A stretch of DNA of 64,000 nt from the human T2T-CHM13v2.0 reference genome, Homo sapiens (GCF_009914755.1 NC_060930.1); one strand, 5' to 3'; shown: positions 32,183-54,404, numbered from the stretch's first letter. Numbers and translations: made by a program. Notes: generated from the letters alone by a model not told the origin.

Positions 32183-33344
32183 TAGAATAAGAGGATTTTT
32201 TTCTCCAAACTTTTTCATTTATTGAATCTTGAGTAACTACAGTAAATCATTATATTACTTTCATTTTAGGATTTGCATTTGCATCTGGTTTGCCTGAATT
32301 TGATCATCAAACTGCCTTCCTTCATTAGACCTAATAAGCCTGTCATGAATCTCTCTCACTGCTTCGTCCAATCTGTGTCAGAGAACCTCTGGTATTAAAA
32401 ATTGCCTTGTGAGGCTCTCTATCTGCCTCTCAATTCCAGCATCCTACCTCCAGTAACCATGTCATTTGTAGATATGAATTCAGATTGTACCAATTTACAG
32501 TATCTAAGTAAATCACAATATTTTTTTAACTTGAATGAAATATTATAAATGTCAGTGAAATATACTTTAAATGTATATTGATTTGACAGATATTCTCTAC
32601 CATTTGAGAAAACCTACATAGAAGCCAATTATTATTTTCAGAAGTGACACAAAACTTGCTGGTAATATAAGACTCAGATTATAGTTGGTAAGTTTTATAG
32701 CATTTAGCAGCTTGAAGCATCAAGGTCTCTTTTTCCTGAACTGCATCAGGGATCTCTACACTGTACGCCTGCCTGAAAAGAGAATAAAATCTCCTACCAG
32801 TGGACCAGGACATCATGTCCTGGGAAAGCACTGGAGGCACATGGACTATACCTTGCATTGTGCCATGAATTTTCTTTTTCTGTGCTTCAGGTTGACTACA
32901 CTCCTCCTCATACTTTCTTTCTCTTTTAAGGAGAAACAATTATCAATTTTTTTTACTAGTTTCTCTGTCACAAGTCATCTTTATTCACACATTCCAAGTT
33001 CTTAGCCTTTTCAAAAGCTTTTGTTATGCTTCCATGTAGACAATTTCTCAATCATTTTGACTTAATTGACTGATCTGTGAGTGGTGATTATTTTTAATTC
33101 ACTTGACCTGCTGAGTAAACTCAAAAAATTAACAAGTAATTTAAAAGAAGTATAGGCAGTAAATCAACCATTATCTGTGGGGAACCTCCCTTGATGTTGT
33201 TTGTATTTGCTACTCTCATTTGTACATGCCATAATCAGGGGGAGAAGCCAAGATGGCCGAATAGGAACAGCTCCCATCTACAGCTCCCAGCATGAGCGAC
33301 GCAGAAGATGGGTGATTTCTGCATTTCCATCTGAGGTACCGGGC

Positions 33345-33689
33345 TCATCTCACTAGGGAGTGCCAGACAGTGGGCGCAGGCCAGTGGGTGCGTGCACCGT
33401 GCGAGGGCCAAAGCAAGGCGAGGCATTGCCTCACTCGGGAAGCGCAAGGGGTCAGGGAGTTCCCTTTCCTAGTCAAAGAAAGAGGTGACGGACAGCACCT
33501 GGAAAATCGGGTCACTCCCACCCGAATACTGCGCTTTTCCGACGGGCTTAAAAAACAGTGCACCATGAGATTATATCCCGCACCTCGCTTGGAGGGTCCT
33601 ACGCCCACGGAGTCTCGCTGATTGCTAGCACAGCTGTCTGAGATCAAACTGCAAGGTGGCAGCGAGGCTGGGGGAGGGGCGCCCGCCAT
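33345..33689 (-). CDS. L1 antisense ORF0, open for 114 codons
   Basis: MAGAPPPASLPPCSLISD... starts at the ATG at 33689 within the provided 137-aa ORF. Expression unknown. Confidence 0.6.
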   Translation of the reverse strand: MAGAPPPASLPPCSLISDSCASNQRDSVGVGPSKRGAGYNLMVHCFLSPSEKRSIRVGVTRFSRCCPSPLSLTRKGNSLTPCASRVRQCLALLWPSHGARTHWPAPTVWHSLVR

Positions 33690-34140
33690 TGCCCAGGCTT
33701 GATTAGGTAAACAAAGCAGCCAGGAAGCTCCAACTGGGTGGAGCCCACCACAGCTCAAGGAGGCCTGCCTGCCTCTGTAGGCTCCACCTCTGGGGGCAGG
33801 GCCCAGACAAAAAGACAGCAGTAACCTCTGCAGACTTAAATGTCCCTGTCTGACAGCTTTGAAGAGAGCCGTAGTTCTCCCAGCACGCAGCTGGAGATCT
33901 GAGAACGGGCAGACTGCCTCCTCAAGTGGGTCCCTGACCCCTGACCCCTGAGCAGCCTAACTGGGAGGCACCCCCCAGCAGGGGCACACTGACACCTCAC
34001 ACGGCAGGGTACTCCAACAGACCTGCAGCTGAGGGTCCTCTCTGTTAGAAGGAAAACTAACAAACAGAAAGGACATCCACACCAAAAACCCATCTGTACA
34101 TCACCATCATCAAAGACCAAAAGTAGATAAAACCACAAAA

Positions 34141-35157
34141 ATGGGGAAAAAACAGAACAGAAAAACTGGAAACTCTAAAAAGCAGAGCACCTCTCCTCCT
34201 CCAAAGGAATGCAGCTCCTCACCAGCAACGGAACAAAGCTGGATGGAGAATGACTTTGAGGAGATGAGAGAAGAAGACTTCAGACGATCAAATTACTCTG
34301 AGCTACGGGAGGACATTCAAACCAAAGGGAAAGAAGTTGAAAACTTTGAAAAAAATTTAGAAGAATGTATAACTAGAATAACCAATACAGAGAAGTGCTT
34401 AAAGGAGTTGATGGAGCTGAAAACCAAGGCTCGAGAACTATGTGAAGAATGCAGAAGTCTCAGGAGCCGATGCAATCAACTGGAAGAAAGGGTATCAGCA
34501 ATGGAAGACGAAATGAATGAAATGAAGTGAGAAGGGAAGGTTAGAGAAAAAAGAATAAAAAGAAATGAGCAAAGCCTCCAAGAAATATGGGACTATGTGA
34601 AAAGACCAAATCTACGTCTGATTGGTGTACCTGAAAGTGATGGGGAGAATGGAACTAAGTGGGAAAACACTCTGCAGGATATTATCCAGGAGAACTTCCC
34701 CAATCTATCAAGGCAGGGCAACGTTCAGATTCAGGAAATACAGAGAACGCCACAAAGATACTCCTCGAGAAGAGCAATTCCAAGACACATAATTGTCAGA
34801 TTCACCAAAGTTGAAATGAAGGAAAAAATGTTAAGGGCAGCCAGAGAGAAAGGTCGGGTTACCCTCAAAGGGAAGCCCATCAGACTAACAGCAGATCTCT
34901 CGGCAGAAACCCTACAAGCCAGAAGAGAGTGGGGGCCAATATTCAACATTCTTAAAGAAAAGAATTTTCATCCCAGAATTTCATATCCAGCCAAACTAAG
35001 TTTCATAAGTGAAGGAGAAATAAAATCCTTTACAGACAAGCAAATGCTGAGAGATTTTGTCACCACCAGGCCTGCCCTAAAAGAGCTCCTGAAGGAAGTG
35101 CTAAACATGGAAAGGAACAACCGGTACCAGCCGCTGCAAAATCATGCCAAAATGTAA
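34141..35157 (+). pseudogene. L1 ORF1p, disrupted
   Basis: MGKKQNRK...QNHAKM with a premature TGA at 34528-34530. Confidence 0.95.
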
Positions 35158-35220
35158 AGACCATCGAGACTAGGAAGAAACTGCATCAACTAACGAGCAA
35201 AATAACCAGCTAACATCATA

Positions 35221-39049
<3,829 letters not shown>

Positions 39050-42000
39050 ACAATGAGATCACATGGACACAGGAAGGGGAATATCACACTCTGGGGACTG
39101 TTGTGGGGTGGGGGGAGGGGGAGGGATAGCATTGGGAGATATACCTAATGCTAGATGAGGAGTTAGTGGGTGCAGCACACCAGCATGGCACACGTATACA
39201 CATGTAACTAACCTGCACAATGTGCACATGTACCCTAAAACTTAAAGTATAATAATATTAAAAAAAAATTTTAATTAATACTTTGAGTTCTTCCAAGGTT
39301 TGTCACAATTCTCAATGAACCACACATCTGTGTTTAGGTTTAATTAATACTCATCCGGACAGTCAGTAATTGGTGAGGAATGTTATTATGCATCTCAAAA
39401 GTAAGTGAATCTATAGGAAATTATAAATAAGAAAAAAATGAGGTTTTATACTTAATAAAAGTATTAATAATAAAGTTCTAGTTCTAGAAATCTATTAAAA
39501 TAAATTGCCAAAATTTAATATTTTTGATAAATGGAGATATGAAAGTTAAATGAATATAAATACATGAATGTCAGTGGATTAAAACTGGACTTGAGCAGTG
39601 ATTAATTAATCTGTAAACATGTATGGATAAATCACAAACCACATATAAATGAACATATGTAGACCCCACAGCTTGCATGATAACCACATAAATCATTTTT
39701 AATTCTATATTTTTAAAGAATACAATAACTAAAAATTATCCCCTGTGAAGCCAAAAAATGTATTTGGTATGAATAAGAAAAATTTTCTGATATTTAGTTA
39801 AAGAACAAATTGAAAGTAGACTTTAGTTTGAGCTCCAATATATTAGCAATGAAATATTGCTGTGGTTGAGGATAAATTTAATATTTGGTCTCAGTAAGAA
39901 ATATTGTTTAATGAAATTGAAATGCCTTATATTTTAAACTAGTAATCCAAATTATTCCAATACAAGTTGTTTAAGAACTGCACTTTGACACACAGTTTAG
40001 TCTGTGTGTAAAATTGTATCTTTGCTATCCTTTGAGAAGCAACGTAATGCAGCGTGAGGGTTTCAGATTCTAATAATCATGAATTTGAATCCAAGCAATT
40101 AATGGTATGAATTTGAGTAAATTACTTGGTCTCTGCGTTTCCACCTGTAGTTTCTAATGTTATGTGGATTTTAAGTAATTATATCTTACGTATCCAGTAC
40201 CATGCCCTCAGATCATTTTGTGGGGAGAAAAGGAGTGGTTACGTCTTTATCTCCCAGCCTTCTTTTCTTGATTTTTGGAGAAAAATTCAAGGTATAACAT
40301 CTCAAAAAATACTATGAATAAAATCAAACCAACAAAAATATTTTAACCCTAAATTTCAAAGTAACTTTAAACCTGACAATTATCTAAATCCATGATATAA
40401 TCAGGGTGGGAGGATGAAGAGCTACATTTAGATCAGAAAATTTTCATATAAATTATTTTCTATAGCAGCTAATATAAAATGTTCATTGGGGAACTTTGCA
40501 CACAGTGGTACTCTCAGGTGTTTATCAATAAAAAATTTGAGAGCCATTATTCTGAAATGAACTCTATGTAAATATTTGTTGATATTCATTTATTTGTGTT
40601 TCCCAGTAGTCTATTAAGAGCTGCAGTGGTTTGGCTGCTTCATAGAATAATGCAATAATAATTGTCTTACGTGCATTGCAAAATATGATATAGGATTATT
40701 ATATTCTCATAAACTTCTTAATGTATTTAACAACCAAAGTTTTAGAAGATTGCATATTTGCTATAGGGCTGCATTACATTCTGTCTTGACATGTGATTTC
40801 AGGTACTTTCAAACTGTTTTAAATGTGTAACATTTATGGTGACTGTTGTGTGTTGTGTTTTAATTTCCCTTTTCAAAAATGTGTAAGTGACCAAGGAGCA
40901 ATTTAACAAACTATAAACATGGTGGTAAATACAATTATAAAATATCACAACGTAGAACAATATCAGAATTGTAAAAAGATTAACAGGTTAAATATAAAAT
41001 GACTCTGTATACACTGATGAAAGTGAATCTCCAGGTGTGATGATTGTGCTCAGGGAGCCAGAGAGTAAAGTGCAATATAAAACTATATTGATAAATATTT
41101 GAGGATTACACTTTATAGAACTGGTAATTTTTTAGTTCCTGTTTCTGTTGCATTGACCATTACAAAATAATTTTTACGAAATAGAATGATGCTATCAAAG
41201 ATTTTATCTTAACTTTCAGATATGACGAAGCAAGATAGCAAGTAAATCAAACTATGTATTTCTCCATAACAGAAAGTAAAATAATCTTTTTAAAAAATAT
41301 GGTATATGTTATTTTTCCTTTAAAGGCAGAGGGCAGAAAATAATTAAAGAGGTATTATCTATGCTTGAATTGCTTATGAAAAAATTAAAATGACATGAAC
41401 ACACTCAAATTGCATTATTACTAAGACTAATAAAATCAGCAATTCTACCAATGACAGTTATTAGAAAATAAAGCAGAATGGGCTATTCATAAAATTATTA
41501 TATTTAACATTGTATCAGCAACATATGTAAACACATTTACTATTTTGTATACATGACACAGAATATTTTGCTTTATATTTGGTTTAAATTCCTCATGTAC
41601 ATATTAGGAATTAACTATAAACATATTTGTTGTTTATAAACAATAAAAATGCTTTATGACTTTTTATTTTATTTAATTTAAAAAAATTCACAGGACAGAA
41701 AAATCAATATTCTTATCAGATTATAATGATTTTGCAAGTCATATTTTACATATGAAAACTTGCCAAGAGATCGGTTATGATGGGACATTAATAAGAAAGT
41801 GTATTACTATAGAAAAAAAGTTTCTGCTGAATATCAGCACAGAGAAATTAGTTTATGGTTAAAGAAACATTCTTCCTTTTCTGATTCTGGAAGATAACCT
41901 CTTGCATTTCTTTTGAGAGGAGATAGCTTCCTCAGTAATTTGGTAGATTCTTGTAATACAATTGTAATAGAAACTGCACATGGCTATTGTAGATCAGGAA

Positions 42001-46109: not shown

Positions 46110-47466
46110 AAAAGCTGATACATCTATGTTATTATCAGAGACAATAGAATTTAAAGCAGAAAACAATACTAGAGAAAAAGAGGAACATTTCATAATAATA
46201 AAATGATTAATTCATTAAGAAGATATAATATTATTAAATGCATATGTAATCAGTAACAGCAAAAAATTCTTAGAACTAAGGCAAGAAATAGATAAATCCA
46301 AATTCACAATCACAGATAAACATAATTACAGTGAAAACAATCATGGTTTAAACCTATATTCTAAAGATCTTTCCTGGTAATTCATATAACAAATAAGTCA
46401 GCAAGGATGTAGAAAATTTGAAAATCATTAATCCATTTGACCTAATTGAGTGTTAGGGAACACTATATGCAACAGTTGTAGAGCTCTCATTATTTTGTGC
46501 ATATGAAACATTTACTAAACAAGAACATTTTCTTGGTGTATTAGGTTATTCTCACATTGCTATAAAGAAATATCAGAGACTGGGAAATTTACAAAGAAGA
46601 GAGACTTAATTGGCTCACGGTTCTGCAAGCTGTACAAGAAGCATGGTCGTATCTACTTCTTGGGAGGCCTCAGGGAGCTTTTTGCTCATGGTGGTAGGCA
46701 AAATGGGAGCAGGCACATCTAATGGCTAGAGCAGGAGAAAGAGAGAGGGGGAAGATGCCACACACTTTTCAATACTCAAACATTGCAGCAACTCACTATC
46801 GAGAGGATAGCACCAAGGGGATGGTGCTAAACCATTCAGGAGAAACCTGCTCCAGTGATCCAGTTACCTCCCACCAGGCTCTATTTCCAATACTGGGGAT
46901 TACATTTCAACATAAGATTTGGGCAGGGACACATATCCAACTATATCACTGGCTCATAAAAAAACTAATAGTAAAATTAAAAGTTTTGTAATCTTTGACT
47001 ACAGGGTATTAATAGAAATCAAGAGCTTAATTAATAATGTAATATCTAGTACATCTGCAAATAATTGAAAATTAAATAACACACTTATAAATTAGCCATA
47101 GTCAGAGAAGAACTACAAAAGAATGTAGAAAACAGTTTATAATAATTTAGGTGTCTATACAAGAAAAGAAAAAAATAAAATTAATGATCTAAGCATTCAC
47201 ATTAATAGGCTTAAAAAAGAGCAGATAGTATGCAAAATGATTTTGAAGTAATAATAAACATTGAAATCAATGAAATGGGAAATAAACAATCATTAGAAAA
47301 ACATTTAAAAGCCAATAATTTGTTCTTTGAAAAAATTAAAAATATTAACTTCTAGCAAAACATCACAAAAATCAGAGAGAATACATATTAACAATATAAT
47401 GATTGAAGGACAATAAATCACTATAATTTATATAGAACAAGTATAATATAAAAATATGAACAATTT
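46110..47466 (+). mobile_element. Old L1M ORF2 fragment (continues at 53856-54010); host of the MSTA and HERV-H insertions
   Basis: Degenerate endonuclease/linker-like sequence (atcagagacaatagaatttaaagc, cattaagaagatataata). Confidence 0.7.
46537..46948 (-). mobile_element. MSTA-type MaLR solo LTR
   Basis: tgtattaggttattctcacattgctataaagaaata...atttgggcagggacacatatccaactatatca. Confidence 0.85.
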
Positions 47467-50400
47467 GGCTGACTCTCTTTTCGGACTCAGCCCGCCTGCA
47501 CCCAGGTGAAATAAACAGCCATGCTGCTCACACAAAGCCTGTTTGGTGGTCTCTTCACACCGACGCACATGAAATTTGGTGCTGTGACTTGGATCAGGGG
47601 ACCTCCCTTGGGAGATCAATCCCCTGTCCTCCTGTTCTTTGCTCTATGAAAAAGATCCACCTGCAAACTCAGGTCCTCAGACCCACCAGCCCAAGGAACA
47701 TCTCACCAATTTTAAATCGGGTAAGCGGCCTCTTCTTACTCTCTTCTCCAACCTCTCTCACTATCCCTCAACCACTTTCTCCTTTCCACTCTTTAATCTC
47801 TCCCTTCTCTTAATTTCAATTCCTTTCATTTTCTGGTAGAGACAAAGGAGACACGTTTTATCTGTGGACCCAAAACTCCGGCGCTGGTCACGGACTGGGA
47901 AGGCAGTCTTCCCTTGGGGTTTAATCATTGCAGGAAAGCCTCTCTGATTATTCACCCACGTTTCAGAGGTGTCAGACCATGCAGGGACACCTGCCTTGGT
48001 CCTTCACCCTTAGCGGCAAGTCCCGCTTTTCTGGGGGAGGTGCAAGTACCCCAGCCTCGTATCTCTGCACCCCGATCCCTTATTTTCACGCCCTAACCTC
48101 TTATATCTCTGCACCCTGATCCCTTATTTCTGTGCCCCAACTTCGTATCTGTGCGCCCCAACCCCTTTCCTGCTTTTCTGGAGGGTAAGAACCCCCGAAC
48201 CACTTCCCTCCGTGTCTCTACTCTCCCTTTTCTTTAAACTTTCCTCCTTCACTATAGGCAATCTTCCACCCTCCATTCCTCCTTCTTCTCCCTTAGCTTG
48301 TGTTCCCAAAAACTTAAAACCTCTTCAACTCACACCTGACCTAAAACCTAAATGCCTTATTTGCTTCTGCAATGCTGCTTGACCCCAATACAAACTCGAC
48401 AGTAGTTCCAAATAGCCAGAAAACCACACTTTCAATTTTTCCATACTGCAAGATCTAAATAATTCTTGTAAAATAGGCAAACAGTCTGAGGTGCCTGACG
48501 TCCAGGCATTCTTTTACACATCGGTCCCTTCCTAGTCTCTGTGCCCAATGTAACTCATCCCAAATCTTCCTCCTTTCCCTCCCGCCTGTCCCCTCAGTCC
48601 CAACTCCAAGTGTTGCTGAGTCTTTCTAATCTTCCTTTTCTACAGACCCATCTGACATCTCCCCTCCTTGCCTGGCTGAGCTAGGTCCCAATTCTTCCTC
48701 AGCCTCCATTCCTCCACCCTATAATCCTTTTATAACCTCCCCTCCTCACACCCGGTCAGACTTACGGTTTTGTTCTGCAACTAGCCCCCCAACCCCAACC
48801 TGCCCAGCAATTTCCTCTTAAAAAGGTGGCTGGAGCTAAAGGCATAGTCAAGGTTGATGCTCCTTTTTCTGTATCCGACCTCTCCCAAATCAGTTAGCGT
48901 TTCGGCTCTTTTTTATCAAATATGAAGAACCCAGCCCAGTTCACGGCTCATTTGGCAGCAACCCTGAGACGCTTTACAGCCCTAGACCCAAAAAGTCAAA
49001 AGGCCGTCTTATTCTCAGTATACATTTTATTACCCAATCCACTCCCAACTTTAAATAAAACTCCAAAAATTAAATTCCAGCCCTCAAACTCCACAACAGG
49101 ACTTAATTAACCTCGCCTTCAAGGTGTAAAATAATAGAAAAAAGGCAATTCCTTGTCTCCACTGTGAGACAAACCGCAGCCATATCTCCAGCACACAAGA
49201 ACTTCCAAACGCCTGAACTGCAGCGGCCAGGCGTTCCTCCAGGCCTGCCTCCCCCAGGAGCTTGCTACAAGTGCCAGAAATCTGGCCACCAGGCCAAGGA
49301 ATGCCTGCAGCCTGAGATTCCTCCTAAGCTGCGTCCCATCTGTGTGGGACCCCACTGAAAATCGGACTGTTCAACTCACCTGGCAGCCACTCCCAGAGCC
49401 CCCAGGACTCTGGCCCAAGGCTCTCTGACTGACTCCTTCCCAGATCTTCTCAGCTTAGCAGCTGAAGACTGACACCGCCCAATCGCCTCGGAAGCCTACA
49501 GGACCATCACAGACGCTCTGGGTAACTCTCACAGTGGAGGGTAAGTCTGTCCCCTTCTTAATCAATACGGAGGCTACCCACTCCACATTACCTTCTTTTC
49601 AAGGGCCTGTTTCCCTTGCCTCCATAACTGTTGTGGGTATTGACGACCAGGATTGTAAACCTCTTAAAACTCCTGAAATCTGGTGCCAATTTAGACAATA
49701 CTCTTTTAAGCACTCCTTTTTAGTTATCCCCACCTGCCGAGTTCCCTTATTAGGCCGAGACACTGTAACTAAATTATCTGCTTCCCTGACTATTCCTGGG
49801 CTACAGCTGCGCCTCATTGCCACCTTTTCCCCCAGTTCAGAGCCTCCTTCACATCCTCCTCTTTTATCCCCCCACCTTAACCCACAAGTATAGGATACCT
49901 CTACTCCCTCCTTGGTGACAGATCATGCACCCCTTACCATCTCATTAAAACCTAATCACCCTTACCCCACTCAATGCCAATATCCCATCCCACAGCACGC
50001 TTTAAAAAGATTAAAGCCTGTTATCATTCACCTGCTACAGCATGGCCTTTTAAAGCCTATAAACTCTCCTTACAATTCCCCAATTTTACCTGTCCTAAAA
50101 CCAGACAAGCCTTACAGTTAGCTCAGGATCTGCGCCTTATCAACCAAATTGTTTTGCCTATCCACCCCGTGATGCCAAACCCATATACTCTCCTATCCTC
50201 AATACCTGCCTCTACAACCCATTATTCTGTTCTAGATCTCAAACATGCTTTCTTTACTATTCCTTTGCACCCTTAATCCCAGCCTCTCTTTGCTTTCACT
50301 TGGACTGACCCTGACACCCATCAAGCTCAGCAAATTACCTAGGCTGTACTGCCACAAAGCTTCACAGACAGCCCCCCTTACTTCAGTCAAGCCCAAATTT

Positions 50401-53253
50401 CTTCCTCATCTGTTACCTATCTCGGCATAATTCTCATAAAAACACATGTGCTCTCCCTGCCAATCGTGTCCGACTGATCTCTCAAACCCCGGTACCTTCT
50501 ACAAAACAACAACTCCTTTCCTTCCTAGGCATGGTTAGCATGGTCAGAATTCTTACACAAGAGCCAGGAAAACACCCTGTAGCCTTTCTGTCCAAACAAC
50601 TTGACCTTACTGTTTTAGCCTAGCCCTCATGTCTGCGTGCAGCAGCTGCCACTGCTTTAATACATTTAGAGGCCCTCAAAATCACAAACTATGTTCAACT
50701 CACTCTCTACAGTTCTCATAACTTCCAAAATCTATTTTCTTCCTCATACCTGACGCATATAATTTCTGCTTCCCAGCTCCTTCAGCTATACTCACTCTTT
50801 GTTGAGTCTCCCACAATTACCACTGTTCCTGGCCCGGACTTCAATCCGGCCTCCCACATTATTCCGGATACCACACCTGACCCTCATGACTGCATCTCTC
50901 TGATCCACCTGACGTTCACCCCCTTTCCCCACATTTCCTTCTTCCCTGTTTCTCACCCTGATCACACTTGGTTTATTGATGGAAGTTCCACCAGGACTAA
51001 TCGCCACTCACCAGAAAAAGCAGGCTATGCTATAGTATCTTCCACATCTATCATTGAGGTTACCACTCTGCCCCCCTCCACTACCTCTCAGCAAGCCGAA
51101 CTAGTTGCCTTAAGCCCTCACTCTTGCAAAAGGACTACGTGTCAATATCTATACTGATTCTAAATATGCCTTTCATATTCTGCACCACCATGTGGTCATA
51201 TGGGCTGAAAGAGGTTTTCTCACTACACAAGGGGTCCTCCATCATTAATGCCTTTTTAATAAAAACTCTACGCAAGGCCACTTTACTTCCAAAGGAAGCT
51301 GGGGTCATTCACTGCAAGGGGCATCAAAAGACATCAGATCCCATTGCTCTAGGCAATGTTTATGCTGATAAGGTGGCTAGACAAGCAGCTAGCTCTCCAA
51401 CTTCTGTCCCTCACAGCCAGTTTTTCTCCTTCACATCGGTCACTCCCACCTACTCCCCTGCTGAAACTTCCACCTATCAATCTCTTCCCACACAAGGCAA
51501 ATGGTTCTTAGACCAAGGAAAATATCTCCTTCCAGCCTCACAGTCCCATTCTATTCTGTCGTCATTTCATAACCTCTTCCATGTAGGTTACAAGCCGCTA
51601 GCCCGTCTCTTAGAACGTCTCATTTCCTTTCCGTCATGGAAATCTATCCTCAAGGAGATCACTTCTCAGTGTTCCATCTGCTATTCTACTACCCCTCATG
51701 GATTGTTCAGGCCTCCTCCCTTTCCTACTCATCAAGCTCTGGGATTTGCCCCTGCCCAGGACTGGCAAATTGACTTTACTCACATGCCTTGAGTCAGAAA
51801 ACTAAAATATATCTTAGTCTGGGTAGACATTTTCACTGGATGGGTAGAGGCCTTTCCTACAGGGTCTGAGAAGGCCAACACAGTCATTTCTTCCCTTCTG
51901 TCAGACATAATTCCTCAGTTTAGCCTTCCCACCTCTATACAGTCTGATAACGGACCAACCTTTATTAGTCAAATCAGCCAGGCATCTTTTCAGGCTCTTA
52001 GTATTCAGTGACAGACTAACGGTCTATTAAAAACATGCCTCACCAAGCTCAGCCACCAACTTAAAAAGGACTGGACAATACTTTTACCACTTTCGCTTCT
52101 CAGAATTCAGGCCTGTCCTTGGGATGCTACAAGGTACAGCCCATTTAAGCTCCTGTATAGACACTCCTTTTTATTAGGCCCCAGTCTCATTCCAGACACC
52201 AGACCAACTTAGACTGTGCCCCAAAAAGTTGTCATCCCTACTATCTTCTGTCTAGTCATACTCCTATTCACCGTTCTCAACTACTCATACATGACCTGCT
52301 CTTGTTTACACTGCCAGTTTACACTGTTTCTCCAAGCCATCACAGCTGGTATTTCCTGGTGCTATCCCCAAACTGCCACTCTAAACTCATGAAGTAAATA
52401 AATAATCTTTGCTGGCAGGACTATGCTGAATCTCCTTAGGCACTCTCTAATCAGATGTCCTGGGTCCTCCCAATTCTTAGACCTTTTATACCTGTTTTTC
52501 TCCTTCTCTTATTCCGTTGAGTTTTTCAATTCATACAAAACCGTATCCAGGCCATCATCAATAATTCTACACAAATGTTTCTTCTAACAACCCCACAATA
52601 TCACCCCTTACCACAAAATCTTCCTTCAGCTTAATCTCTCCCACTCTAGGTTCCCACACCACCCCTAATCCCACTGGAAGCAGCCCTGAGAAACATCACC
52701 CATTCTCTCTCTCCATACCACCCCCCAAAAATTTTCGCTGCCCCAACACTTCAACACTATTTTATTTTATTTTTCTTATTAATATAAGAAGGCAGGAATG
52801 TCAGGCCTCTGAGCTCAAGCCAAGTCATCACATCCCCTGTGACTTGCACGTATATATGTCCAGATGGCCTGAAGTAACTGAAGAATCACAAAAGAAGTGA
52901 ATATGCCCTGCCCCACCTTAACTGATGACATTTCACCACAAAAGAAGTGTAAATGGCCAGTCCTTGACTTAAGTGATGACATTACCCTGTGAAAGTCCTT
53001 TCTGTGGCTCATCCTGGCTCAAAAACCACCCCCACTGAGCACCTTGCGACCCCCACTCCTGCCCGCCAGAGAACAAACCCCCTTTGACTGTAATTTTCCT
53101 TTACCTACCCAAATCTTATAAAATGGCCCCACCCTTATCTCCCTTCACTGACTCTCTTTTCCCACTCAGCCCACCTGCACCCAGGTGAAATAAACAGCCA
53201 TGTTGCTCACACAAAGCCTGTTTGGTGGTCTCTTCACAGGGACACGCATGAAA
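47467..53253 (+). mobile_element. HERV-H: R-U5 only at the 5' end (47468-47574), His PBS, gag-pro-pol remnants, deleted env, complete 3' LTR7
   Basis: PBS tggtgctgtgacttggat at 47577-47594; zinc knuckle CYKCQKSGHQAKEC; protease FLINTEAT (catalytic motif mutated); RT DLRLINQ and LDLKHAFF; integrase HNLFH..CSIC and WQIDFTHMP. Confidence 0.97.
52799..53253 (+). promoter_or_regulatory. LTR7 3' LTR with TATA box (53117-53123) and AATAAA
   Basis: TGTCAGGCCTCTGAG...GCATGAAA, preceded by the polypurine tract agaaggcaggaa. Confidence 0.93.
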
Positions 53254-53397
53254 GGCCCCTTTCCGGTAACAAAGGTGCTATCAAGAAACAGAGAGGGGTT
53301 GGTTGATGCTTCTTAACCTTGTTAATATCAAATTTTCTGCATCTGAGTAGTGCTTTGAAAACCCCGGTAAGGTGTAAGACATGGGAACTTTTGTGCC

Positions 53398-53838
53398 TAT
53401 TGGAAACCAGAATATGCCACACCAAGGTATACAGGATGATTGAGCCAAAGGCAATGAAGGAGGAGATGCAGGAAAGCACTCTGCCCTCCATGTGCCTAAA
53501 AGCAGGATATAAATGTGCAAAGGCAAAGGGTTTCCATGCCCTCACCTACCAGAGAGAAGAAATGTTAACCCTTTAAGACAACATTAGCCGGTGGAGATGG
53601 TAGCAGTGGAATCTACATTAACCAGCTTTCCTAACTTGCCGTTAATTGCCCTTAGTTTACCTTTCCACAAGTTGCTATTCTGCACATTCAAAGTTCCTTT
53701 CCTTTGTTTTGTCGCTTCTCTAAAATTTTCCTTTACTTTGTTAACGATGCTATATAAGCTGTAATTCAAATTCACCTCTATGAGAATTACTCATTCCCTG
53801 GTATCTCCCATGTATATATAAAATATACATGTTAATAA
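53398..53838 (+). mobile_element. MER34-like LTR truncated at its AATAAA (part of the transduced flank)
   Basis: gaaaccagaatatgccac...gcctaaaagcagga...atatacatgttaataaa matches the recalled MER34 group. Confidence 0.7.
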
Positions 53839-54404
53839 AAAAATATGAACAATTTCTTGTCAAAATTGGAGGGCATATATTATTTAGTTTAAGGATGTAA
53901 TATAAAACTATAGCAATCAAGATAAAGTGGTATCGGCATGAGGATAAACAAATGAATTGATTGAACAGAATAAAGAGTCCTGAAGTGGATCTACAATTGA
54001 TTTTTGACCAATTTGTTGAGGTACAATAGTCAGCAGTCTCTGAATTGAAGATGTAGAGCTGTGGCTCTGGGGATTTCAAAGCAGAAAAAGTTCACAGGAA
54101 AGAGTTCTATAAAAGAGAAAACTGCACATGGAAATAACTTGGGAAATTTGTAAAGTCTACTCTTTAGGAATCTGTAAATAGTTTTAATTAATGAATGTGT
54201 ATAATTAATGTGTATTTTAATTAATTAATGTATATAATTAATGTATGTAATTAATGAATGTGTATAAGAAACCTAAACAAGGGTAGCAAAAGAACCACAC
54301 AAAATAATTAGGGCAAATTATACTTAAAGTTCACAAAGGGCAGAAAATAATACCTGTTTACAATAGCTGAAGTGGAAAATCTTTTTATTCCAGTGATCAG
54401 TTAG

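What the first reader, a model, noticed from the sequence alone, without database searches (positions are those of the whole stretch)
47450..53855. Whole HERV-H RNA apparently retroposed by LINE-1: cap-site start, extra G, perfect 17-bp TSD
Seen: the 5' LTR lacks U3. It starts G-GCTGACTCTC at 47467, at the position 30 nt downstream of the TATA box in the intact 3' LTR (TATA 53117, equivalent base 53147), with a G where the 3' LTR has C. The 6.37-kb insert is bounded by identical AAAAATATGAACAATTT at 47450-47466 and 53839-53855, and the bottom-strand nick reads TTTTT/AT. The host L1M resumes after the second copy. The splice donor at 47721 is unused. Established: HERV-H integrase gives two full LTRs and ~5-bp TSDs. 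L1 TPRT gives longer A-rich TSDs and often an untemplated 5' G, and this route is well known for HERV-W. Inference: this is a processed copy of capped, unspliced HERV-H RNA and a fossil record of the LTR7 transcription start site in the germline or early embryo.
Basis: partly seen in the sequence, partly recalled or inferred. Interest (0 to 1): 0.85.

Follow-up and report, generated by a model that had tools for sequence, protein, structure and literature searches.

The report
L1-made copy of HERV-H RNA
This 6.4-kb insert is a copy of an endogenous-retrovirus (HERV-H) RNA that the LINE-1 machinery pasted into chromosome 6, and because the RNA ran on into its neighbour's DNA, the parent provirus on chromosome 4 can be named.

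Summary

- **Boundaries.** The insert (47467-53838) is bounded by an exact 17-bp duplication. It starts 30 nt after the LTR7 TATA box with one extra G and has no U3 at its 5' end.
The last 585 nt (53254-53838) are not HERV-H.
- **Source.** That tail has one 97% full-length match in the genome, on contig C4 at 16.98 Mb.
  - There it directly follows a complete two-LTR provirus flanked by a 5-bp duplication, GGCCC.
  - The window copy is collinear with that provirus from the R start onwards. It carries C4's 3' GGCCC and C4's flank, then stops.
  - So an unspliced RNA from the C4 provirus read through its 3' LTR and was inserted by L1 with a 3' transduction.
- **Timing.** LTR comparisons place the event soon after the provirus integrated.
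- **Not unique.** At least 8 more poly(A)-tailed HERV-H retrocopies exist. The three full-length ones examined start at the same base.
- **Literature.** Reviews say only HERV-W is mobilised by L1.
- **Open points.** The poly(A) tail is almost absent, and "L1M resumes" is only half verified.

The parts
47450..47466 (+). Left copy of the 17-bp target-site duplication AAAAATATGAACAATTT. The bottom strand at its left edge reads TTTTT/AT, an L1-endonuclease-like nick site.
47467..47467 (+). Extra G with no counterpart in the source (LTR copies have C here). Read as an untemplated, cap-derived base.
   Evidence: The same extra G occurs in 3 of 4 other retrocopies whose 5' ends were examined.
47468..47574 (+). 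R-U5 part of the 5' LTR with no U3. The first base corresponds to 53147, 30 nt after the first T of TATAAAA in the intact LTR.
47575..52798 (+). Internal region with the leader and degraded gag-pro-pol. The PBS-like stretch at 47577-47594 is named from memory as tRNA-His type. The GT at 47721-47722 is unspliced.
- Above the Pfam cutoff: zinc knuckle 49107-49355, protease 49459-49890, integrase core 51793-52008.
- Below the cutoff: RT, RNase H and integrase zinc-domain fragments.
- No env domain was found.
52799..53253 (+). Complete 3' LTR (U3-R-U5, 455 nt) with TATAAAA at 53117-53123 and AATAAA at 53189-53194. The LTR's own poly(A) site (about 53210-53211 by comparison with the tailed copies) was bypassed.
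53254..53258 (+). GGCCC, the 3' copy of the 5-bp target-site duplication of the source provirus on C4, carried along in the RNA.
53254..53838 (+). 585-nt 3' transduction, a copy of C4 16985554-16986136 (13 mismatches in 583 aligned). From about 53394 onwards it is an old LTR-like interspersed repeat with TATATAAG at 53751-53758.
53817..53839 (+). 3'-end signals of the retroposed RNA.
- TATAAA at 53817-53822 is present in C4 and the window; paralogues have TATGAA.
- AATAAA at 53834-53839 is conserved in the old repeat family.
- Homology with C4 ends inside this second hexamer. C4 continues TGTGGTTTTTTT.
53839..53855 (+). Right copy of the 17-bp target-site duplication. Its leading A's cannot be told apart from any remaining poly(A).
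53862..54011 (+). Right flank: a decayed L1 ORF2 remnant, the host element into which the copy was inserted.

Best explanation
**What it is.** The insert is a processed retrocopy of a full-length, unspliced HERV-H transcript, made by the LINE-1 machinery (target-primed reverse transcription).

**Shown**
- A complete HERV-H provirus sits on contig C4 (about 16.98 Mb) with a 5-bp GGCCC duplication.
- The window's insert matches it base for base, from the R start of the 5' LTR, through the whole interior and the whole 3' LTR, into 583 nt of C4's downstream flank. There the match stops.
- The insert is flanked by a 17-bp duplication whose bottom strand reads TTTTT/AT.

**Inferred**
1. RNA polymerase II started at the LTR7 cap site of the C4 provirus.
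2. It ignored the splice donor and the 3' LTR's poly(A) signal.
3. The RNA ended inside an old LTR-like repeat downstream, 16 nt after a TATAAA hexamer and just before a GU/U-rich run.
4. L1 ORF2p nicked the chromosome-6 target at TTTTT/AT and primed on the A's at the RNA's 3' end.
5. It copied the RNA to its capped 5' end, adding one untemplated G.
6. A staggered second nick 17 bp away produced the duplication.

**Timing.** The event happened soon after the C4 provirus integrated.
For: 1. **Source and direction.**
   - The 593-nt tail has exactly one 97% full-length match in the genome, at C4:16985546-16986136. The other 40 hits are 70-78% paralogues of an old repeat.
   - Window 47469-53839 aligns to C4 16979719-16986137 in a single alignment (94% over 6432 columns). 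C4 has 348 nt of U3 upstream that the window lacks.
   - C4's provirus is flanked by GGCCC on both sides, and the window carries the 3' GGCCC and the flank.
   - In C4 the flank repeat continues 43-102 nt past the point where homology stops, collinear with 6 of 6 paralogues. C4 is therefore the original context.
2. **RNA ends.**
   - The 5' end is 30 nt after TATAAAA.
   - Four other retrocopies begin at the same G, and three of these four also carry the extra G: C6:81.69M, C11:81.06M and C14:33.49M have it, C2:199.7M does not.
   - The 3' end has a hexamer 16 nt upstream and TGTGGTTTTTTT just downstream in C4.
3. **L1 signature.**
   - The 17-bp duplication is exact, and it is one of only three exact direct repeats of 17 nt or more at 3-10 kb spacing in the window. 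The other two are the LTRs.
   - The nick site reads TTTTT/AT.
   - Sister copies have duplications of 11-19 bp and tails of A14-A33.
4. **Timing.**
   - Copy versus source K2P is 0.052. C4 5' LTR versus 3' LTR is 0.060.
   - At the 16 sites where the two C4 LTRs differ, the window's 3' LTR agrees with the 5' LTR at 9 and with the 3' LTR at 7. This gives T(copy)/T(integration) of about 1.
Against: - **Poly(A) tail almost absent.** Only 7 A's lie between ...GTTAAT and TATGAAC. Up to 3 of them are templated by C4 and up to 5 belong to the duplication, so 0-4 are tail. The sister copies keep A14-A33.
- **Unusual 3' end.** The RNA end lies inside the old repeat's conserved AATAAA (4 of 6 paralogues plus C4), not the usual 10-30 nt downstream of it. 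Cleavage there needs the weaker upstream TATAAA, so how the 3' end formed is not settled.
- **Uneven divergence.** The transduced flank is less diverged from C4 than the HERV part (13 of 583 versus 305 of 5774, p = 6e-4; non-CpG p = 0.04). The date is therefore uncertain by about two-fold.
- **Untested here.** The empty site could not be inspected in other primates. The left flank could not be shown to be L1 or contiguous with the right flank.
- **Family names.** The names HERV-H and LTR7 rest on the finding's text and my recall. No repeat library was available.
Confidence: 0.93

Rival explanations
1. An ordinary integrase-made HERV-H provirus at this site later lost the U3 of its 5' LTR by deletion. 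The 17-mer pair is a coincidence.
For: Deletions in old proviruses are common. The 17-mer is AT-rich, and 3 of 100 shuffles gave two matches when up to 2 mismatches were allowed.
Against: - The insert carries another locus's 5-bp duplication (GGCCC) and 583 nt of that locus's flank after its 3' LTR.
- There is no short duplication at the LTR edges here.
- The 17-mers abut the homology break points exactly.
- Exact repeats of 17 nt or more at this spacing do not otherwise occur in the window outside the LTRs.
- The 'deletion' would have to end at the same base at which four other copies begin.
Confidence: 0.01
2. DNA-level duplicative transfer from C4 to C6 with no RNA intermediate (break repair using C4 as template, or a small segmental duplication). 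Its ends fall at the transcription start and at an A-rich spot by chance.
For: There is almost no poly(A) tail. The 3' end sits inside a hexamer rather than downstream of it.
Against: - The 5' end falls on the same nucleotide as in four independent poly(A)-tailed retrocopies, with the same extra G as three of them.
- There is a 17-bp duplication with a TTTTT/AT nick site.
- The copied segment is precisely one transcription unit in one orientation.
Confidence: 0.02
3. RNA-mediated, but the 3' end was not a true poly(A) site. L1 primed internally on a longer read-through RNA at the A-rich AAUAAA. Alternatively, insertion was endonuclease-independent, at a pre-existing break.
For: - The tail is 0-4 A.
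- The end falls inside the family-conserved AATAAA.
- The left and right flanks could not be shown to be contiguous L1.
Against: - Internal priming on ...AAUAAAUGUGG offers only 3 A's to a T5 primer. It predicts 5 A's after AAT, but 7 are seen (my own pairing argument, which is inference).
- A TATAAA 16 nt upstream and a GU/U-rich run immediately downstream fit a real cleavage site.
- An exact 17-bp duplication and a TTTTT/AT site are what endonuclease-dependent insertion gives.
Confidence: 0.1

Closest known systems
HERV-W processed pseudogenes made by LINE-1 (Pavlicek et al. 2002, not held, recalled; Grandi et al. 2016, PMC5016936, passages seen)
   Same: - It is a retroviral genomic RNA copied by L1.
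- The 5' LTR is reduced to R-U5, starting at the cap site.
- It has a long target-site duplication and an L1-type insertion motif, and it lacks a promoter at its 5' end.
   Different: - The family is HERV-H, not HERV-W.
- The 3' LTR is complete (U3-R-U5) rather than ending at R, because the RNA read through.
- 585 nt of the source's flank are attached.
- There is almost no poly(A) tail.
- The parent provirus can be named.
3' transduction by L1 and SVA elements (recalled from the general literature; no paper read here)
   Same: - A weak own poly(A) signal is bypassed and the transcript ends at a downstream signal.
- The flanking DNA travels with the copy and identifies the source locus.
   Different: The RNA here is an LTR element that encodes none of the machinery and is mobilised in trans. 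The downstream signal lies in an unrelated old LTR-like repeat.
Canonical HERV-H retrocopies found here (for example C2:199.73M, C6:81.69M, C11:81.06M)
   Same: They share the same first base, the same extra G in 2 of these 3, L1-type duplications of 11-20 bp, and the same overall R-U5...U3-R layout.
   Different: They end at the LTR7 R/U5 boundary (...GTTGCTCAC) with tails of A16-A24. They carry no flank, so their sources are not identified.

Membership tests
L1-mediated processed retrocopy (processed pseudogene) | Collinear with a transcript: the 5' end lies at the transcription start, with no promoter upstream | tested here: met
   - The copy starts 30 nt after TATAAAA and has no U3.
- Four other retrocopies share the same first base.
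L1-mediated processed retrocopy (processed pseudogene) | The 3' end lies at a polyadenylation site and is followed by a poly(A) tail | tested here: inconclusive
   - Homology ends 16 nt after TATAAA and just before a GU/U-rich run in C4.
- Only 0-4 untemplated A's remain.
L1-mediated processed retrocopy (processed pseudogene) | A target-site duplication of roughly 7-20 bp directly abuts both ends | tested here: met
   The 17-bp duplication is exact and abuts the homology break points.
L1-mediated processed retrocopy (processed pseudogene) | T-rich/A nick site on the bottom strand (consensus TTTT/AA, recalled) | tested here: met
   The site reads TTTTT/AT at 47444-47454.
L1-mediated processed retrocopy (processed pseudogene) | A parent gene elsewhere in the genome | tested here: met
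   The parent is the C4 provirus at 16979371-16985553, together with its flank.
Integrase-made HERV-H provirus | Two complete LTRs | tested here: not met
   The window copy lacks the 5' U3. The C4 locus meets the feature.
Integrase-made HERV-H provirus | A short (about 5-bp) duplication at the LTR edges | tested here: not met
   The window has none. The GGCCC after its 3' LTR belongs to C4, where it is present on both sides.
HERV-H / LTR7 family | LTR7-type LTR, tRNA-His-type primer-binding site, and gamma-like gag-pro-pol | not testable with these tools
   - No repeat library was available, so the LTR7 and PBS-His names are recalled or taken from the finding.
- Pfam finds zinc knuckle, protease and integrase remnants.
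- Other copies of the same family are 86-91% identical.

The most novel reading that the evidence does not exclude
L1 copying of HERV-H RNA was not a one-off but a recurrent route in the catarrhine germline.

- Dozens of elements now counted as HERV-H 'proviruses' or LTR7 fragments would then be L1-made retrocopies. That contradicts the printed view that L1 mobilised HERV-W transcripts only.
- These copies preserve, base for base, the LTR7 cap site (the G of GCTGACTC) and its poly(A) site as used in the germline or early embryo.
- This locus adds a variant in which L1 delivered a complete LTR7 (U3-R-U5), together with a second old LTR, to a new site. That stretch now carries RefSeq 'enhancer' features (52088-53876, hub annotation), about 38 kb beyond the end of GRIK2.
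Probability: 0.4. Interest if true: 0.7.

Novelty: new member of a known kind. Interest (0 to 1): 0.58.

Why it matters
- **A dated parent-daughter pair.** A provirus and its retrocopy can both be named. This allows direct comparison of how a copy with its promoter and a copy without a 5' promoter decay. Here the daughter kept 82 CpGs against 107 in the parent.
- **A natural record of RNA ends.** With the sister copies, it records the LTR7 start site and poly(A) site in the cells that pass on their genome.
- **It affects HERV-H catalogues.** Catalogues that treat every internal-plus-LTR element as an integration event will misdate and misclassify such copies. Vargiu et al. 2016 say processed pseudogenes were not separated (PMC4724089, passages).
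- **Limits.** L1 is known to copy any polyadenylated RNA, and HERV-H RNA is abundant where L1 is active. A specialist would find this satisfying rather than astonishing.

Tried and rejected
1. **Testing whether the two flanks are one uninterrupted L1M.**
   - The right flank maps to L1 ORF2 (in-window L1 37816-37977, E 4e-6, 0 of 300 shuffles; PDB ORF2p residues 866-908, E 0.7).
   - The left flank gave nothing usable:
     - PDB hits were only ubiquitin noise.
     - The best local alignment to the in-window ORF2 was matched by 39 of 300 shuffles.
     - A genome protein search returned only itself (1 match from 90 candidates).
     - A genome DNA search was swamped by a young repeat in the first 50 nt of my query.
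     - It aligned to 0 of 24 paralogous L1 loci that hold the right-flank segment, whereas the right flank re-aligned to 22 of 24.
     - tblastn gave no consistent placement.
   - By eye, the left flank resembles an ORF2 region about 1.35 kb upstream, not the adjacent one. That impression is from memory and is not supported by any score.
3. **Key papers not held:** Pavlicek 2002 (PMC155283) and Sjottem 1996 (PMC189804). I could not check whether a few HERV-H copies were already noted there, nor the published LTR7 cap site.
4. **Start-site literature searches** gave no base-level LTR7 start site.
5. **The relaxed R+poly(A) pattern** gave 51 loci.
   - I do not count them all as HERV-H. 29 carry ...GCCTTG....
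   - The 3 of those 29 that I checked belong to a related but different LTR family. From memory this is probably HERV-W.
   - Two loci carry ...GCCCTG... and were not checked.
   - 10 of the 20 ...GCCATG... loci were not examined.
6. **APOBEC-type editing** as the cause of the extra divergence in the HERV part was not supported. G/A changes are only mildly asymmetric (53 versus 39). The clearest asymmetry is C-to-A (29 versus 8), which remains unexplained.
Full report
**1. The observation**

The 17-mer AAAAATATGAACAATTT is present exactly at 47450-47466 and 53839-53855. With up to two mismatches allowed, these are the only two matches in the window (expected 0.23; 3 of 100 shuffles reached two).

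A stricter control looked at every exact direct repeat of 17 nt or more lying 3-10 kb apart in the 64-kb window. There are only three: this pair and two stretches of the LTRs themselves.

After the left 17-mer come G, then GCTGACTCTC. The stretch 47469-47574 aligns to 53148-53253 of the 3' LTR, with 98 of 106 bases identical. TATAAAA lies at 53117-53123, so 47468 corresponds to a base 30 nt after the first T. No U3-like sequence lies upstream of 47465. The bottom strand at the left edge of the duplication reads TTTTT/AT.

**2.

The 3' LTR ends at 53253 (...CATGAAA), yet the insert runs on for 585 nt to 53838.

I searched the window's own assembly with 53246-53838. Besides itself, it has a single near-identical, full-length match: contig C4 16985546-16986136, at 97%. 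The other 40 hits are 70-78% matches to the distal three-quarters only, so that part is an old interspersed repeat.

**3. The source locus**

I fetched C4 16976001-16990000 and compared it with the window.

- Window 47469-53839 aligns to C4 16979719-16986137 as a single alignment (94% over 6432 columns).
- The window's 3' LTR also matches a C4 5' LTR that begins 348 nt further upstream, at 16979371.
- C4 thus holds a provirus with two complete LTRs (16979371-16979824 and 16985101-16985553).
- It is flanked by GGCCC on both sides, the short duplication expected of integrase.
- The window copy reads ...CATGAAA-GGCCC-CTTTCCGG..., identical to C4's 3' junction. It then follows C4's flank for 583 nt.
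- At ...GTTAATAAA the two part. C4 continues TGTGGTTTTTTT, and the window continues with the 17-mer.
- In C4 the old repeat continues 43-102 nt beyond this point, collinear with 6 of 6 paralogues. C4 is therefore the native context of the flank.

The direction is settled: C4 is the parent and the window's insert is the daughter. The copied segment is one transcription unit, from the cap site of the 5' LTR to a point 583 nt past the 3' LTR. This is a 3' transduction.

**4. The ends of the RNA**

*The 5' end.* The four LTR pieces compare as follows at the start:

| LTR piece | Sequence at the start |
|---|---|
| C4 5' LTR | TTTCACTGAC |
| C4 3' LTR | TTAGCTGAC |
| Window 3' LTR | TTCACTGAC |
| Window 5' piece | G-GCTGAC |

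The simplest ancestral state is CGCTGAC. The window's second G is then templated, and its first G sits where C should be.

Taken alone, a C-to-G change or a TT(T) microhomology with the end of the duplication could explain this. Four other retrocopies found here begin at the same templated G, and three of them also carry one extra G that is not part of their duplications:

| Locus | 5' start |
|---|---|
| C6:81.69M | GG |
| C11:81.06M | GG |
| C14:33.49M | GG |
| C2:199.73M | G only |

Four of five copies (these four plus the window's) with the same extra G cannot be four separate transversions. An untemplated, cap-derived G is the economical reading. That L1 copies often carry such a G is established knowledge that I recall, not something tested here.

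*The 3' end.* Homology stops inside an AATAAA that is conserved in the old LTR-like repeat (4 of 6 paralogues plus C4). It lies 16 nt after a TATAAA that C4 and the window share, where the paralogues have TATGAA. A GU/U-rich run follows immediately. This layout fits cleavage and polyadenylation directed by the upstream hexamer, but that is inference.

Only seven A's lie at the junction. Up to three are templated and up to five belong to the duplication, so the tail is now 0-4 nt. This is the one feature that departs from the textbook picture, since the sister copies keep A14-A33. Either priming occurred at the very base of the tail or the tail later shrank. Internal priming on a longer RNA fits the A-count less well, by my own pairing argument.

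**5. Content of the insert**

The interior is a degraded gag-pro-pol.

- Above the Pfam cutoffs: zinc knuckle (49107-49355), retroviral protease (49459-49890) and integrase core (51793-52008).
- Below the cutoffs: RT, RNase H and integrase zinc-domain fragments.
- No env domain was found.

The GT at 47721-47722 is retained and the copy is collinear with the provirus, so the RNA was unspliced.

**6. Timing**

| Comparison | Mismatches / aligned | K2P |
|---|---|---|
| Copy versus source | 318 / 6357 | 0.052 |
| C4 5' LTR versus C4 3' LTR | 26 / 453 | 0.060 |

At the 16 gap-free sites where the two C4 LTRs differ, the window's 3' LTR agrees with the C4 5' LTR at 9 and with the C4 3' LTR at 7. 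This gives T(copy)/T(integration) of about 1. The provirus was therefore young, and evidently transcribed in the germline, when its RNA was copied.

Absolute dating is loose. The transduced flank differs by only 13 of 583, significantly less than the HERV part (p = 6e-4; non-CpG p = 0.04). The HERV part is C-rich (32% C) and out of compositional equilibrium, which probably inflates its rate.

**7. Not a one-off**

*Strict pattern.* I searched the genome for the LTR7 R end followed by an A-run (AATAAACAGCCATGTTGCTC, 4-20 nt, then A12). It found 26 overlapping matches at 10 loci, against 0 for the reversed control.

- Eight of the ten are clearly the window's family, with HERV-H interior and U3 upstream.
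- One groups with a related family (L071).
- One is an R-only copy that cannot be assigned (L079).

*Upstream DNA fetched for five loci*:

| Locus | Form | Duplication | Tail |
|---|---|---|---|
| C2:199.73M | Full-length from the R start | 14 bp exact | A17 |
| C6:81.69M | Full-length from the R start | 11 bp exact (16 bp with one mismatch) | A24 |
| C11:81.06M | Full-length from the R start | About 17-20 bp with an indel | A16 |
| C2:153.99M | 5'-truncated | 17-19 bp exact | A14 |
| C14:96.65M | 5'-truncated, in an A-rich target | Unclear | A33 |

*Relaxed pattern.* Allowing up to 3 mismatches found 51 loci against 0 for the control. Only 20 carry the ...GCCATG... form. Of the 29 with ...GCCTTG..., the three I checked belong to a different, related LTR family. 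From memory this is probably HERV-W, whose L1 copies are well known. The safe lower bound is therefore 9 HERV-H retrocopies, the window's included. Ten more candidates are unexamined.

**8. Literature**

- Grandi et al. [quoted passage not shown]
- Thomas et al. 2018 exclude pseudogenes only for HERV-W (PMC6298018, Methods passage).
- Vargiu et al. 2016 did not separate processed pseudogenes from proviruses (PMC4724089, passages).
- Seven searches for HERV-H processed pseudogenes or retrocopies found no description. The phrase search returned 0 papers.
- The founding paper (Pavlicek 2002) and the HERV-H promoter paper (Sjottem 1996) are not held. No supplements were consulted.

**9. Flanks**

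The right flank is a decayed L1 ORF2 remnant. The left flank could not be placed by any test. This does not bear on the main conclusion.

**10. Verdict**

The finding is real and correctly interpreted. It is a new member of a known kind: an L1-made processed copy of a retroviral RNA, here HERV-H rather than HERV-W. It has three added features: read-through of the 3' LTR, a 3' transduction that names the parent provirus, and a nearly absent tail. Confidence in the main reading is 0.93. Interest is moderate to good, because it overturns a repeated "HERV-W only" statement and gives base-level fossil RNA ends, while the mechanism itself is expected.

Noticed in passing
Window 47469-53838 compared with L009/L010 (C4 16979719-16986136): The daughter copy has lost more C and CpG than the parent.
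- It keeps 82 CpGs against 107 in the parent.
- C4 C / window T occurs 70 times against 48 for the reverse.
- C4 C / window A occurs 29 times against 8 for the reverse.
- The transduced flank is about half as diverged as the HERV part (p = 6e-4).

Possible causes are heavier methylation of the promoterless copy or the AT-rich surroundings. Neither was tested.
   Followed up: partly
L079 (G000:C14, about 33.487 Mb, minus strand): An R-only retrocopy: a 13-bp duplication (AAAACTCTGTTCT), then GG-CTGACTC..., about 65 nt of R, then an A-rich tail. It is a copy of a tiny RNA that started and was polyadenylated within one LTR. Its family assignment rests only on the ...GCCATG... variant.
   Followed up: partly
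One search list; L088-L090 (C3:78.95M, C4:145.68M, C9:77.28M): 29 loci have a near-identical R ending in ...GCCTTGTTGCTC plus poly(A). The 3 I checked belong to a related but different LTR family: the 5' part of U3 is only 75-79% identical to the window's, and there is no HERV-H interior. From memory these are probably the known HERV-W L1 copies. The R region is almost the same in both families.
   Followed up: partly
Window 53394-53838, and C4 16985694-16986238: The transduced flank is mostly an old LTR-like repeat of about 545 bp (paralogues 70-78% identical). It has a conserved TATATAAG and a conserved AATAAA. Its family could not be named because no repeat library was available.
   Followed up: partly
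Window 33000-39700: A younger L1 on the + strand still has long open stretches, including a 704-codon stop-free stretch of ORF2 from 35884. I used it only as a reference for placing the flanks.
   Followed up: no
Window 52088-53876: According to the hub's annotation, two RefSeq 'enhancer' features cover the end of the HERV-H interior, the complete 3' LTR and the whole transduced flank. They end about 20 nt past the right duplication. Whether the activity comes from the LTR7 or from the old LTR was not examined.
   Followed up: no
Window about 48132: The window copy lacks 44 nt that are present in the C4 source. This is the largest of 15 gap events between the two copies.
   Followed up: no
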